Positions 6,505 to 8,155 of a stretch of DNA of 13,578 nucleotides are shown one piece after another (the stretch's first letter is position 1; each line of letters begins with the position of its first letter). The stretch comes from a virus. The stretch lies in IMG/VR virus record IMGVR_UViG_3300029915_000364; one strand, given 5' to 3'. Both the position numbers and the translations under genes were made by a program. The notes under the pieces were generated by a model that saw only the letters and a program-made list of their open reading frames with translations, did no database searches and was not told where the DNA came from.

Positions 6505-6933
6505 CTAGGAGCGGGGTGCCCACAGAGGAAGGTAGTCGAGGATATCCACCACCTCTTCCGGCATTACCGGAACGGTTGCCAAGGCAGTTGTCACTTCACA
6601 GGGGGCACCACAATCCTCACCATAAACGGCGGGGTTGATATCTTCAAAAGTGTAGTGCTCGATCTCCGCCTTCTCCAACAGCCGCTGTACATGACGCAAC
6701 TCATTCGAGTCACGAGCCCCGAGAATGATAGTGGTGATGGCCTCGTCTGCTCTCGCCAACTGATGCTTCTCACTCAACCCTATAATCTGGTGCATCTTCA
6801 TCCGGCTGGCCACATGCACAGCCTGAGCCGCGATTCTCCCCGGTACCTGAACTACCTCTCCCTCTGGGGTGGAGACAGTCTCGGCCACTACAACATAGAT
6901 TCGTTTTTCGGACGGAATTTTATTCTTCTTCAC
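6505..6933 (-). CDS. Peptidyl-tRNA hydrolase 2 (PTH2) family protein
   Basis: GTG start at 6933..6931 with GGGAG 5-6 nt upstream, and no in-frame ATG nearby. The 142-aa product has the PTH2 pattern: RIYVVVAET...PGRIAAQAVHVA (compare KMGKGKIAAQCSHA in PTH2). It is followed by ITTIILGARDSNELRHVQRLLEKAEIEHYTFEDINP and TALATVPVMPEEVVDILDYLPL (compare [22 protein letters not shown]). Confidence 0.65.
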   Translation of the reverse strand: MKKNKIPSEKRIYVVVAETVSTPEGEVVQVPGRIAAQAVHVASRMKMHQIIGLSEKHQLARADEAITTIILGARDSNELRHVQRLLEKAEIEHYTFEDINPAVYGEDCGAPCEVTTALATVPVMPEEVVDILDYLPLWAPRS

Positions 6934-7039
6934 TATCGTCTCCCAAGTAAAAATCGACCTCGTGAATCAAGGTGAGGTTTATCAAGGTACGAACTATATC
7001 GACTTCCGACTTGAGCAACCTGTCCCAAAATTTAATCAT
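6920..7039 (-). CDS. Small peptide (39 aa) with an acidic C-terminus (...DFYLGDDSEEE), translationally coupled to both neighbours
   Basis: The ATG lies within ATGATTAA and overlaps the TAA stop of the ATP-grasp gene by 8 nt. Its 3' end overlaps the GTG start of the PTH2-like gene by 14 nt. No SD of its own is needed if translation is coupled. It is the in-frame C-terminal part of track ORF 6920..7117. Confidence 0.45.
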   Translation of the reverse strand: MIKFWDRLLKSEVDIVRTLINLTLIHEVDFYLGDDSEEE

Positions 7040-7856
7040 GGTACACTCCGGCCCAAATGTTGGCAAACGCCTCCGGGGTCCAGTTACCAACCAAGTCTGA
7101 TACTTGACCGTCTCCAATTTCTACCACCCGAGGCTGGCCGTCGTCGCGAATCGCGATGTCCACGGAGTAGAAGGGAGACGCCACGCGGGTACGAACAGTC
7201 TCAAGCAGGTCGTAAATACCGTTGGTGTCCACCTTTGCCCACTCCCCCGAAACCCCGATAGTCCGTCCTTGGATAACGAAGAAGCGGCGTTCGTCGGTCA
7301 GTTTCTCCACCCGGCGAACACAGATGCCGCCCTCCAACTTGCCACGGAATTTTGTCATGGCATCAAGCAGTGTGAGGACATCTTGCGGTGTCGTCACCGA
7401 TGGATGGTTCTCCAGCTTCAGGGACTTCACATAGTCCTTGATAAAGTAGTGCTCCCACCCCAATGCCTGTAGAGCCAGCACGAGGTTGAACTGCGGGGTG
7501 AAACAGAACTCAGGAAAAACTACAGTATCAGGAGTCAGCCCCGCTATCAGCGGGTACCAGCACGGCAGGTGGTGACAGCGAATGTAGTCCTCCGGGCGAG
7601 TAAACAGCCGCCCACCCATCGTCTTCACCTTGTCTGTCATAGCGCGGTATTCAGCCGAGTTTAGCATCCAGCCACGATACACTACCACAGCACCATCGAA
7701 CCCTCTCGGGTTGTTACTGCAATCTCCCCAGATTCCACCTGCCTCAGTGGAGTACACAGAGTTGGGGTAGCGTTTCAGAGCGGACGCCTGCGGGGCGAAA
7801 TACTCATCCAGCTTTTTCGGGTTCAGCGGGTCAGCCGGGAATATGAAGTGTAGCAT
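7032..7856 (-). CDS. ATP-grasp domain protein (RimK-related / R2K-clade amidoligase, DUF4343-like)
   Basis: ATG at 7856 with GGAGG and AAGGG upstream is preferred over the GTG at 7940, which would overlap the upstream ORF by 31 nt and add a low-complexity N-terminus. The product has AVVVYRGWMLNSAEY near the N-terminus. Its C-terminal RFFVIQGRTIGVSGEW...SPFYSVDIAIRDDGQPRVVEIGDGQVSDL is typical of the ATP-grasp C-terminal subdomain found in phage-associated RimK-like ligases. Confidence 0.75.
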   Translation of the reverse strand: MLHFIFPADPLNPKKLDEYFAPQASALKRYPNSVYSTEAGGIWGDCSNNPRGFDGAVVVYRGWMLNSAEYRAMTDKVKTMGGRLFTRPEDYIRCHHLPCWYPLIAGLTPDTVVFPEFCFTPQFNLVLALQALGWEHYFIKDYVKSLKLENHPSVTTPQDVLTLLDAMTKFRGKLEGGICVRRVEKLTDERRFFVIQGRTIGVSGEWAKVDTNGIYDLLETVRTRVASPFYSVDIAIRDDGQPRVVEIGDGQVSDLVGNWTPEAFANIWAGVYHD

Positions 7857-7909
7857 ACCACCCTTTCTACCTCCGTGGTTTAGTATCCCCGGACAACCGA
7901 GGTTTGGCT

Positions 7910-8155
7910 TTAGTGGCCGTAGTTGCACCCGACCATCCACTCCCGGCCTTGCAGGTCAGTCACTGTGGTTTCAAAGCTACCACAGCACCCCCGGCTTCTG
8001 GCTTCCTCGAACAACGCCATGGAGGTCAAGTCGGAGGTCAAGCCATACCGCTGGTTGTCGGCGTACTCCAGCCCGTCGTCCTCAACGAACGCATCCAGAG
8101 CAGCTTTCACTTCAGACGGTACTTCAATGGGGGCACTCGTGCTAAATTTTTCCAT
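7910..8155 (-). CDS. Hypothetical small Cys-containing protein (81 aa)
   Basis: ATG at 8155 with GGAG 6 nt upstream. The acidic N-terminal half (DAFVEDDGLEYADNQ) is followed by RGCCGSFETTVTDLQGREWMVGCNYGH. It sits 53 nt upstream of the ATP-grasp gene. Confidence 0.5.
   Translation of the reverse strand: MEKFSTSAPIEVPSEVKAALDAFVEDDGLEYADNQRYGLTSDLTSMALFEEARSRGCCGSFETTVTDLQGREWMVGCNYGH

What the first reader, a model, noticed from the sequence alone, without database searches (positions are those of the whole stretch)
6505..8155. Coupled module: small Cys ORF, RimK-related ATP-grasp ligase, 39-aa acidic-tailed peptide, PTH2-family hydrolase
- **Tight linkage:** Four consecutive genes with overlapping junctions. 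The ATP-grasp stop and peptide start share ATGATTAA, and the peptide's 3' end overlaps the GTG start of the PTH2-like gene by 14 nt. This implies stoichiometric co-expression.
- **Peptide-tagging hypothesis:** RimK-type ATP-grasp enzymes add amino acids to acidic C-termini (S6 ...EE, tubulin). The sandwiched peptide ends ...GDDSEEE, so it could be the substrate or a carrier.
- **PTH2 role:** PTH2 enzymes hydrolyse the ester between a peptide and the tRNA 3' end. An amidoligase next to an ester hydrolase suggests a peptide-tagging or aminoacyl/peptidyl-tRNA-linked system.
- **Alternative:** It could be a translation-takeover module, with the ligase modifying host ribosomal protein S6 and PTH2 clearing peptidyl-tRNA.
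- **Novelty:** I do not recognise this trio as a described system.
Basis: partly seen in the sequence, partly recalled or inferred. Interest (0 to 1): 0.8.

Follow-up and report, generated by a model that had tools for sequence, protein, structure and literature searches.

The report
Four unlinked phage genes packed together
A phage ATP-grasp ligase, an orphan 39-codon ORF and a peptidyl-tRNA-hydrolase-like gene really do sit end to end, but related phages break this arrangement up, so it is compact phage gene packing and not a new peptide-tagging system.

Summary
The four minus-strand ORFs exist and both enzyme families are confirmed. The ligase is an R2K clade family 3 ATP-grasp with its ExGD motif intact. 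The hydrolase has a Pth2 fold, but the catalytic Lys is replaced by an Arg that is invariant in this phage clade.

Two junctions overlap as described (8 nt and 14 nt). The first junction is a 53-nt gap.

The "module" is not conserved:
- **Closest relative (~77-83% identity):** the same four genes appear to be interspersed with four others.
- **More distant jumbo phages:** ligase and hydrolase lie 0.4-5 kb apart, in either order, or only one is present.
- **Bacteria:** 0 of 80 genomes with the ligase have the hydrolase nearby.

The 39-aa ORF has no homologue among 1.84 billion representative proteins. Its acidic tail lies entirely inside the hydrolase's ribosome-binding site, start codon and Lys-rich first codons. 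An unrelated upstream gene in the relative has the same last 10 residues.

Most likely these are independent accessory genes of a jumbo-phage-type rIIA/rIIB-Ku-MVP region, and the small ORF is a lineage-specific filler or recombination scar.

One weak signal remains: unrelated ORFs ending just upstream of the hydrolase are acidic-tailed in 3 of about 17 lineages.

The parts
7910..8155 (-). cys81: 81-aa Cys-containing ORF of unknown function. Lineage-restricted small phage gene, followed by a 53-nt gap and not an overlap.
   Evidence: ORF. PHROG phrog_33577, E = 3e-13, unknown function. Only itself and one 80%-identical protein among 5.8 billion clusters. In the relative L135, homology to the window ends at its stop codon and an unrelated gene follows.
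7032..7856 (-). R2K clade family 3 (R2K.3) ATP-grasp, 274 aa, predicted amide-bond ligase with an unknown substrate.
   Evidence: Pfam R2K_3, 66.5 bits. 2092 homologues. Invariant K140, K144, K147, E175, R181, D233 and E246-x-G248-D249 are all present. AF2 pLDDT 91; Foldseek top hits are the ATP-grasp ligases DcsG, ArgX/LysX, PsnB, Ddl and RimK.
7032..7039 (-). 8-nt stop/start overlap, ATGATTAA (ligase TAA / pep39 ATG).
   Evidence: Read directly from the sequence. A GGAG lies 6 nt upstream of the ATG. The 77% relative also has an 8-nt overlap after its ligase, but there it starts a 101-aa ORF.
6920..7039 (-). pep39: orphan 39-codon ORF filling the 98-nt gap between ligase and hydrolase. Coding-like composition, no homologues. 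Probably a lineage-specific micro-ORF or a recombination/deletion scar.
   Evidence: No Pfam or PHROG hit. phmmer against 1.84 billion representatives finds only itself. Codon log-odds 0.215 per codon over its 32 non-overlapping codons and 0.176 over the full ORF, against 0.295 +/- 0.23 for true genes; both exceed all 132 open off-frame ORFs. Its last 10 aa are identical to the end of an otherwise unrelated ORF in L134.
6920..6933 (-). 14-nt overlap between the pep39 3' end and the PTH2-like GTG start. The acidic tail (GGA GAC GAT AGT GAA GAA GAA TAA) is the hydrolase's SD (GGAGA), spacer, GTG and AAG AAG AAT AAA read in another frame.
   Evidence: Sequence. About 23 nt upstream of the GTG are conserved in L134 (20 of 23), then identity falls to random. 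PTH2-like N-termini are typically Lys-rich (MKK...) across the family.
6505..6933 (-). PTH2-like protein, 142 aa. Pth2 fold in a divergent phage clade with a GR (not GK) motif and a C-terminal DYLPLW motif.
   Evidence: Pfam PTH2, 26 bits. 114 homologues. Invariant G32, R33, Q37, H40, T67, D98, T116. Profile aligns to PDB Pth2 with GK matched to GR and DAG matched to the D98 region. AF2 pLDDT 95; the top 12 Foldseek PDB hits are all Pth2. Viral hits are annotated peptidyl-tRNA hydrolases of large phages.
3915..6374 (-). Flank: major-vault-protein homologue (819 aa), separated from the PTH2-like gene by a 130-nt gap. Context only, not part of the claimed module.
   Evidence: Pfam MVP_shoulder 3.5e-26 and Vault_3 1e-9. 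The PTH2-then-MVP adjacency is also seen in L004 and L019.
8281..9267 (-). Flank: Ku homologue. Further upstream lie rIIB (9746-10978) and rIIA (10971-13397). Together they mark the conserved accessory region of a jumbo-phage lineage.
   Evidence: Pfam Ku 1.7e-20. PHROG rIIA and rIIB. Synteny with contigs of 85-463 kb.

Best explanation
This is an ordinary, densely packed stretch of the accessory region of an uncultured phage. Its relatives are jumbo phages with contigs of 85-463 kb, and the region runs rIIA-rIIB-Ku-...-PTH2-like-MVP.

It carries four functionally independent genes.
1. cys81 is a lineage-restricted small protein of unknown function.
2. The R2K.3 ATP-grasp is catalytically intact. 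It most likely ligates an amino acid to a carboxylate on a protein target through an acyl-phosphate intermediate, as proposed for the R2K clade. This is inferred, and the target is unknown.
3. pep39 is a 39-codon orphan ORF. It fills the gap left when the small genes found in relatives between ligase and hydrolase were lost or swapped. It keeps both neighbours' translational-coupling junctions, and its acidic tail is the hydrolase's translation-initiation region read in another frame.
4. The PTH2-like protein is a Pth2-fold hydrolase. It most likely releases peptidyl or N-acyl-aminoacyl groups from tRNA to keep tRNA available during infection or under host attack on translation. This is inferred from fold and motifs, and the Lys-to-Arg change leaves the exact substrate open.

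The stop/start overlaps reflect the translational coupling and genome compaction usual in phages, not stoichiometric assembly of a system.
For: Families and folds are confirmed.

The adjacency is not conserved:
- In the closest relative, Ku-cys81 is followed by an unrelated 159-aa gene.
- Its ligase contig reads 159 aa-148 aa-R2K-101 aa-82 aa.
- Its PTH2 is preceded by an ORF of at least 65 aa whose homology to the window is limited to about 23 nt before the GTG.
- L004 (328 kb) has four genes between R2K and PTH2.
- L172 has one unrelated ORF of 92-109 aa between them.
- L017, L018, L021, L186 and L190 have PTH2 2-5 kb upstream of R2K.

At contig level in IMG/VR, 16 contigs carry the PTH2-like gene and 21 carry R2K.3, but only 4 carry both. 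Contigs of 237-536 kb carry one without the other. Bacterial genomes give 0 of 80, and no conserved neighbour of any kind.

pep39 has no homologue, and no acidic-tailed ORF follows R2K elsewhere (1 of 96). A natural variant, L136, has a 46-nt deletion that truncates the ligase after codon 11. R2K ligases and PTH2 were each already reported separately in jumbo phages (PMC7824862; PMC4431377).
Against: - R2K.3 and the PTH2-like gene lie within 5 kb of each other in at least 7 phage lineages and in both gene orders. They were never found far apart on one viral contig. That is more persistent than random placement in 300-kb genomes.
- Unrelated ORFs that end at the PTH2 start have acidic tails in 3 of about 17 lineages, against 1.9% of other conserved ORFs.
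- pep39 has gene-like codon usage and a plausible SD, so it may well be translated.
- No experiment bears on any of the activities.
Confidence: 0.75

Rival explanations
1. Loose functional pair. The R2K.3 ligase and the PTH2-like hydrolase both act on the translation apparatus or tRNA-linked substrates, and selection keeps them near each other in this jumbo-phage clade. pep39 plays no part.
For: The two genes co-localise within 0.1-5 kb in the window, its 77% relative, L004, L172/L170, L017/L021/L186, L018 and L190, in two different orders. Whenever both are on one IMG/VR contig they are close. The NJ tree does not show the phage R2K.3 genes as one clean clade, which leaves room for repeated acquisition into the same region.
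Against: All co-occurrences lie in one syntenic accessory region next to rIIA/rIIB/Ku, so inheritance explains the proximity. 12 of 16 PTH2-like viral contigs lack R2K.3 and 17 of 21 R2K.3 contigs lack PTH2. Tunturiibacter phage Tunturi_5 has the PTH2-like gene but no R2K.3. No bacterial locus has the pair (0 of 80). The NJ tree is star-like and unresolved.
Confidence: 0.14
2. The ligase extends or charges the acidic C-terminus of the co-translated 39-aa peptide, in the manner of RimK-S6, LysX-LysW or a graspetide precursor, and the PTH2-like enzyme processes an ester-linked product.
For: The stop/start coupling of all three ORFs is real. pep39 looks coding. The closest solved folds include ArgX/LysX, which act on the acidic C-terminus of the small carrier LysW, the RiPP ligase PsnB, and RimK. 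Acidic-tailed ORFs precede PTH2 in L172 and L028 as well, and in L172 that ORF sits between R2K and PTH2.
Against: pep39 is an orphan. Its tail is fully contained in the PTH2 SD, start and Lys codons, and it is shared with an unrelated ORF in L134. Only 1 of 96 other R2K.3 loci has an acidic-tailed ORF downstream. R2K.3 is a stand-alone gene with no conserved neighbour in bacteria. The three acidic-tailed ORFs are not homologous to each other. pep39 has no Cys, so no LysW-like zinc ribbon.
Confidence: 0.04
3. pep39 is not a gene at all. The 98-nt spacer is a regulatory leader for the PTH2-like gene, such as a weak attenuator hairpin followed by a T-run.
For: A terminator-like hairpin, ACCTTGATTCACGAGGT followed by CGATTTTT, lies at 6973-6957 on the minus strand, about 24 nt before the GTG. 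The T-run and SD are the only part conserved in L134.
Against: Terminator-like sites are no more frequent than in shuffled sequence (3 found, 5.4 expected). There is no Rfam match. The frame has coding-like codon usage above every open off-frame ORF, plus an ATG with an SD.
Confidence: 0.07

Closest known systems
R2K clade family 3 (R2K.3, Pfam PF14243) ATP-grasp proteins (Burroughs, Zhang and Aravind 2015, PMC4431377)
   Same: Strong Pfam match. The invariant Lys cluster KDYVKSLK, the ExGD motif that distinguishes R2K.3, and a well-conserved pre-ATP-grasp N-terminal region are all present. It is a stand-alone gene with sporadic distribution, as described for the family.
   Different: It is phage-encoded. 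The 2015 paper listed phage members mainly for R2K.2. The published operon partners (GNAT, R2K.2, ADP-ribosylglycohydrolase) are not seen here. No substrate is known for any member.
PTH2 peptidyl-tRNA hydrolases of jumbo and large phages (Iyer et al. 2021, PMC7824862; e.g. Myrna gp36, RaK2, Atu_ph07)
   Same: Pth2 fold, QxxHA motif and catalytic Asp conserved. It is found in large phages alongside other translation and RNA-repair accessories.
   Different: This is a separate clade with an invariant Arg replacing the catalytic Lys, D-x-N..VYG in place of DAGxT, and a conserved C-terminal DYLPLW. Canonical phage PTH2 (Myrna gp36) scores only 12.7 bits against its profile.
RimK / ribosomal protein S6 poly-glutamylation
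   Same: ATP-grasp fold, with RimK among the structural matches. The idea of extending an acidic C-terminus comes from this system.
   Different: No Pfam RimK hit. The R2K clade lacks the RimK-type loop motif and linker Lys according to PMC4431377. No conserved substrate gene is adjacent.
LysX/ArgX-LysW amino-group carrier system, and graspetide ligases (PsnB, microviridin type) with adjacent precursor peptides
   Same: These are among the closest solved folds. In them, a small protein or peptide encoded next to an ATP-grasp is its substrate, and LysW has an acidic C-terminal Glu.
   Different: In those systems the small partner is conserved with the ligase. Here the small ORF is an orphan, and 95 of 96 other R2K.3 loci lack any acidic-tailed downstream ORF. 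pep39 has no zinc ribbon and no recognisable graspetide core.

Membership tests
R2K.3 ATP-grasp (PF14243) | Profile match above the curated cut-off | tested here: met
   66.5 bits against a cut-off of 26.3, E = 4.4e-18. A secondary R2K_2 hit scores 36.6 bits.
R2K.3 ATP-grasp (PF14243) | ExGD motif in the last strand in place of the usual ExN (PMC4431377) | tested here: met
   VEIGDGQVSD: E246, G248 and D249 are invariant in 33 sequences and present in the window protein.
R2K.3 ATP-grasp (PF14243) | Conserved Lys of the RAGNYA strand plus a second Lys/Arg just downstream (the two lysines of 'R2K') | tested here: met
   KDYVKSLK with K140, K144 and K147 invariant. Which Lys corresponds to which published position is inferred, not mapped on a structure.
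R2K.3 ATP-grasp (PF14243) | ATP-grasp three-dimensional fold | tested here: met
   AF2 pLDDT 91, pTM 0.87. More than 500 PDB matches at E <= 0.001. The 50 best listed are ATP-grasp-fold proteins, mostly ligases, TM 0.5-0.65.
R2K.3 ATP-grasp (PF14243) | ATP-dependent amide ligase activity on a defined substrate | not testable with these tools
   No member of the family has a characterised substrate, according to PMC4431377.
RimK family | Match to the RimK profile and an S6-type substrate relationship | tested here: not met
   No Pfam RimK hit at E <= 0.1. RimK appears only as one of many ATP-grasp structural neighbours.
PTH2 (PF01981) | Profile match above the curated cut-off | tested here: met
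   26.0 bits against a cut-off of 23, E = 1.1e-5. This is marginal. Many clade members have no precomputed PTH2 hit.
PTH2 (PF01981) | Pth2 fold | tested here: met
   AF2 pLDDT 95. The top 12 PDB hits are all Pth2 (3erj, 1rlk, 2zv3, 1q7s, 1xty, 1wn2), target-normalised TM 0.69-0.75.
PTH2 (PF01981) | Catalytic Lys of the GK(x)xAQxxHA motif (Lys18 of S. solfataricus Pth2). The residue role is from my own recollection of Fromant et al. 2005; I could not retrieve the paper here. | tested here: not met
   The position is Arg33, invariant in all 38 clade members (PGRxAAQAxHA).
PTH2 (PF01981) | Catalytic Asp of the DAG motif (Asp86 of S. solfataricus Pth2; same caveat on the source) | tested here: met
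   D98 is invariant and aligns with the D of the vkDaG motif of PDB 24bt.
PTH2 (PF01981) | Hydrolysis of peptidyl-tRNA | not testable with these tools
   Needs an enzyme assay or complementation of a pth(ts) strain.
ATP-grasp + adjacent substrate peptide/carrier systems (LysX-LysW, graspetides) | The small partner gene is conserved next to the ligase across the family | tested here: not met
   pep39 is an orphan. 1 of 96 other R2K.3 loci has an acidic-tailed downstream ORF. Bacterial R2K.3 has no conserved neighbour.

The most novel reading that the evidence does not exclude
In one clade of jumbo phages, an R2K.3 ligase and an Arg-variant Pth2-fold hydrolase form a translation-directed pair. 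The acidic C-termini of whichever small ORF is translationally coupled to the hydrolase (pep39 here, unrelated ORFs in L172 and L028) are the ligase's substrates or carriers. That would be a LysW-like carrier logic reinvented on interchangeable small proteins.
Probability: 0.06. Interest if true: 0.7.

Novelty: new member of a known kind. Interest (0 to 1): 0.2.

Why it matters
As proposed, it would have been a new phage peptide-tagging or tRNA-linked system. The evidence reduces it to two already described kinds of jumbo-phage accessory gene that happen to abut in one lineage.

Three things of modest value remain:
- A well-populated phage clade of Pth2-fold proteins has an invariant Lys-to-Arg change, and its substrate is worth testing.
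- The R2K.3 ligases, still without a known substrate, are shown to be recurrent cargo of an uncultured jumbo-phage lineage.
- The locus illustrates how overlapping gene boundaries persist while the small genes between them are swapped, creating orphan ORFs that mimic purposeful micro-genes.

Tried and rejected
- **INPHARED phages:** nucleotide search of the region and protein search of the ligase found nothing.
- **IMG/VR with the single ligase protein:** no relatives. An alignment query was needed.
- **PADLOC and NCBIfam:** no meaningful hits for any of the genes.
- **Rfam and tRNA scans of the window:** nothing.
- **Promoter/terminator scan:** counts at or below the shuffled expectation.
- **Microdiversity test on pep39:** not possible, because 10 other contigs are 99.9-100% identical.
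- **Exact-pattern search for the PTH2 junction** (TAYTTGGGAGAYGAYAGTGAAGAAGAAT): no hit in the metagenome or viral collections.
- **DNA of the 77% relative's ligase contig:** not held. I therefore could not test whether pep39's N-terminus derives from that relative's 101-aa ORF. The phmmer search argues against similarity strong enough to reach about 35-40 bits.
- **NJ tree of R2K.3:** star-like, so it cannot decide between one acquisition and several.
- **Myrna, which has both a PTH2 and an R2K-clade protein according to PMC4431377:** no R2K.3-type match within the 50 kb around PTH2 gp36. My profile may miss R2K.2, so this is inconclusive.
- **Huge phages LR756500 and LR756501:** they carry MVP but no PTH2-like or R2K gene within 15 kb.
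- **Rejected idea, the acidic tail as a selected feature of pep39:** three substitutions between the window and L134 all fall on third codon positions of the upstream frame, but that gives p of about 0.04 from two sequences and lies inside the constrained ribosome-binding region.
- **Pth2 active-site literature:** I could not retrieve it.
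Full report
**What is there**

All genes in the window are on the minus strand. 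In transcription order they are rIIA (10971-13397), rIIB (9746-10978), a 106-aa ORF, Ku (8281-9267), cys81 (7910-8155), an ATP-grasp gene (7032-7856), a 39-codon ORF (6920-7039), a PTH2-like gene (6505-6933) and a full-length major-vault-protein homologue (3915-6374). This is phage DNA. No nucleotide match exists in the INPHARED phage collection, and the ligase has no tblastn match there either.

**Checking the observation**

The ligase stop and the start of the 39-aa ORF share ATGATTAA, an 8-nt overlap. The 39-aa ORF overlaps the GTG start of the PTH2-like gene by 14 nt.

The first junction is different. Thirty-two homologues of the ligase begin at the position of ATG 7856, and the gene calls on identical contigs use that start. 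cys81 and the ligase are therefore separated by a 53-nt gap.

Gaps of about 125-130 nt lie between Ku and cys81 and between the PTH2-like gene and MVP. The four ORFs may well form one transcription unit. That is inference; the promoter/terminator scan gave nothing above chance.

The arrangement recurs at 99.9-100% nucleotide identity on at least 10 contigs from other samples, so it is a real genome and not an assembly chimera.

**The ligase**

- Pfam R2K_3 scores 66.5 bits against a cut-off of 26.3.
- There are 2092 homologues, mostly about 45% identical, in Deinococcus, cyanobacteria, Planctomycetota, Verrucomicrobiota and metagenomes.
- The window protein keeps every invariant residue of a 33-sequence alignment. 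These include KDYVKSLK, E175, R181, D233 and the E-x-G-D motif that Burroughs et al. give as the hallmark of R2K.3 (PMC4431377).
- The AlphaFold model (pLDDT 91) matches ATP-grasp ligases: DcsG, ArgX/LysX, PsnB, D-Ala-D-Ala ligase and RimK, with TM of about 0.5-0.65.
- No Pfam RimK hit was listed, so it is an R2K.3 member and not a RimK.

**The hydrolase**

- Pfam PTH2 is just above its cut-off, 26 bits against 23.
- The model is very confident (pLDDT 95). Its top 12 PDB matches are all archaeal or human Pth2. The best viral matches are annotated peptidyl-tRNA hydrolases of large phages.
- The 114 homologues form a distinct clade. QxxHA and the Asp that aligns with the catalytic DAG aspartate are invariant.
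- The Lys of the canonical GK motif is an invariant Arg in all 38 aligned members. The clade also has a conserved C-terminal DYLPLW.
- The catalytic roles of that Lys and Asp come from my recollection of the S. solfataricus Pth2 work, which I could not retrieve.

I therefore call it a Pth2-fold, PTH2-like enzyme and leave its exact substrate open.

**The 39-aa ORF**

- It has no Pfam or PHROG match and no tblastn match in related loci.
- An exhaustive phmmer search of 1.84 billion representative proteins returned only itself, plus two repeat-protein artefacts.
- Its frame does look coding. It scores 0.215 log-odds per codon over its 32 non-overlapping codons (0.176 over the full ORF), against 0.295 +/- 0.23 for real genes. 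Both values are higher than all 132 open off-frame ORFs in the window.
- A GGAG lies 6 nt before its ATG.

The acidic tail, however, is GGA GAC GAT AGT GAA GAA GAA TAA. That is the hydrolase's Shine-Dalgarno GGAGA, the spacer, the GTG start, and its AAG AAG AAT AAA (MKKNK) read in another frame. Lys-rich N-termini are typical of the whole PTH2-like clade.

In L134, the ~76% relative of the hydrolase, an upstream ORF of at least 65 aa overlaps the start by the same 14 nt. It ends in the identical FYLGDDSEEE. Nucleotide homology to the window, however, extends only about 23 nt upstream of the GTG and is random beyond that.

So pep39 shares only the hydrolase's initiation region with that ORF. 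It looks like a lineage-specific filler or recombination product. The same mosaic pattern appears elsewhere: the small ORF of L172 shares only its first ~8 residues with a 121-aa gene of L004.

**Is the module conserved? No.**

- *Closest relative (77-83% identity):* Ku-cys81 is followed by an unrelated 159-aa gene, and homology to the window stops exactly at the cys81 stop codon.
- The ligase contig of that relative reads 159 aa-148 aa-R2K-101 aa-82 aa.
- Assuming these contigs come from one phage, which is inferred from their equal divergence and overlapping gene content, the four genes are interspersed with four others.
- *L004, a 328-kb contig:* the order is rIIB-GerE-Ku-sigma-394 aa-R2K-75-166-121-66 aa-PTH2-MVP.
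- *L172/L170:* one unrelated ORF of 92-109 aa separates ligase and hydrolase.
- *L017, L018, L021, L186 and L190:* the hydrolase lies 2-5 kb upstream of the ligase.
- *IMG/VR overall:* 16 contigs carry the PTH2-like gene and 21 carry R2K.3, but only 4 carry both. Contigs of 237-536 kb carry one alone.
- *Cultured phages:* Tunturiibacter phage Tunturi_5 (309 kb) has the PTH2-like gene between SbcD and DnaB genes, and no R2K.3.
- *Bacteria:* none of 80 genomes with R2K.3 has a PTH2-type gene within 6 kb, even at E <= 1, and no neighbour of any kind is conserved.
- *Acidic-tailed downstream ORFs:* outside this phage's own copies, 1 of 96 R2K.3 loci has one.
- *A natural variant:* L136 carries a 46-nt deletion that stops the ligase after codon 11. 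If real, the ligase is dispensable.

**What it most likely is**

These are four independent accessory genes in a syntenic but highly plastic region of a jumbo-phage lineage. The stop/start overlaps are ordinary translational coupling.

Mechanistically, all of the following is inferred. The R2K.3 enzyme would activate a carboxylate as an acyl-phosphate and ligate an amino acid to a protein target, as predicted for the clade (PMC4431377; PMC7824862). The Pth2-fold enzyme would strip peptidyl or N-acyl-aminoacyl groups from tRNA to sustain translation, as suggested for jumbo-phage PTH2 (PMC7824862). Both ideas are already in the literature, but not as a linked pair.

**What remains unexplained**

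- The two genes are always close when both are present, and they occur in two orders.
- Non-homologous ORFs ending at the hydrolase start have acidic tails in 3 of about 17 lineages (window/L134, L172, L028). The base rate in other conserved ORFs of the same loci is 5 of 265.
- Overlap with a purine-rich SD and with Lys codons explains two of those three tails, and the threshold was chosen after seeing the data.

**Verdict**

The proposed novel system is not supported. Novelty: new members of known kinds. Interest: 0.2.

Noticed in passing
window 3915-6374 (-); L004 7892-10480; L019 1080-3620: A full-length major-vault-protein homologue (Vault repeats, shoulder domain, long C-terminal coiled coil) lies directly downstream of the PTH2-like gene. 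The same adjacency occurs in two other phage lineages (55-56% identity). 40%-identical MVPs are in the 462-kb and 735-kb huge phages LR756500 and LR756501, but with no PTH2 or R2K within 15 kb. Phage MVPs have been reported (bioRxiv 10.1101/2023.11.10.566534); that paper holds none of the neighbourhood terms I searched for (peptidyl, ATP-grasp, neighbo-, rIIA, jumbo, adjacent).
   Followed up: partly
L136 around 2420, equivalent to window about 7781-7826: A contig from another metagenome is the same phage but has a 46-nt deletion between short CTGAA repeats. It creates a stop after codon 11 of the ATP-grasp gene. Either the ligase is dispensable in nature or this is an assembly error.
   Followed up: partly
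window 6505-6933 and alignment A1: The whole phage PTH2-like clade (114 proteins found) has an invariant Arg where canonical Pth2 has its catalytic Lys, plus a conserved C-terminal DYLPLW motif and usually a Lys-rich N-terminal extension. It may have a modified substrate or mechanism.
   Followed up: partly
L172 1469-1798; L028 9607-10005; window 6920-7039; L134 1-198: Unrelated small ORFs that terminate at or inside the start of the PTH2-like gene carry strongly acidic C-termini (DDGEPEPEEENK, HEEVDDEECR, GDDSEEE). That is 3 of about 17 lineages against 1.9% of other conserved ORFs in the same loci.
   Followed up: partly
L172 1520-1545 against L004 6625-6650; window 6920-6955 against L134 165-198: Small genes in this region are mosaic. 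Only the first ~8 or last ~10 codons, which are the overlaps with neighbouring genes' stops and starts, are shared between otherwise unrelated ORFs. This suggests that gene boundaries act as recombination joints.
   Followed up: no
PP885688.1 123966-124397 (L216 11968-12399): The only cultured phage in INPHARED with this PTH2-like clade is Tunturiibacter phage Tunturi_5 (308.7 kb, Acidobacteria host, Finnish soil). The gene is annotated as hypothetical and sits among replication and recombination genes.
   Followed up: partly
window 9319-9639 (-) and 8281-9267 (-): A 106-aa ORF with paired CxxC-like cysteines lies between rIIB and a phage Ku homologue. It has only weak zinc-ribbon hints: CSL zinc finger at E = 0.055, and phrog_8294 at E = 0.0055. 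The rIIA-rIIB-Ku linkage is conserved across the related jumbo-phage contigs.
   Followed up: no
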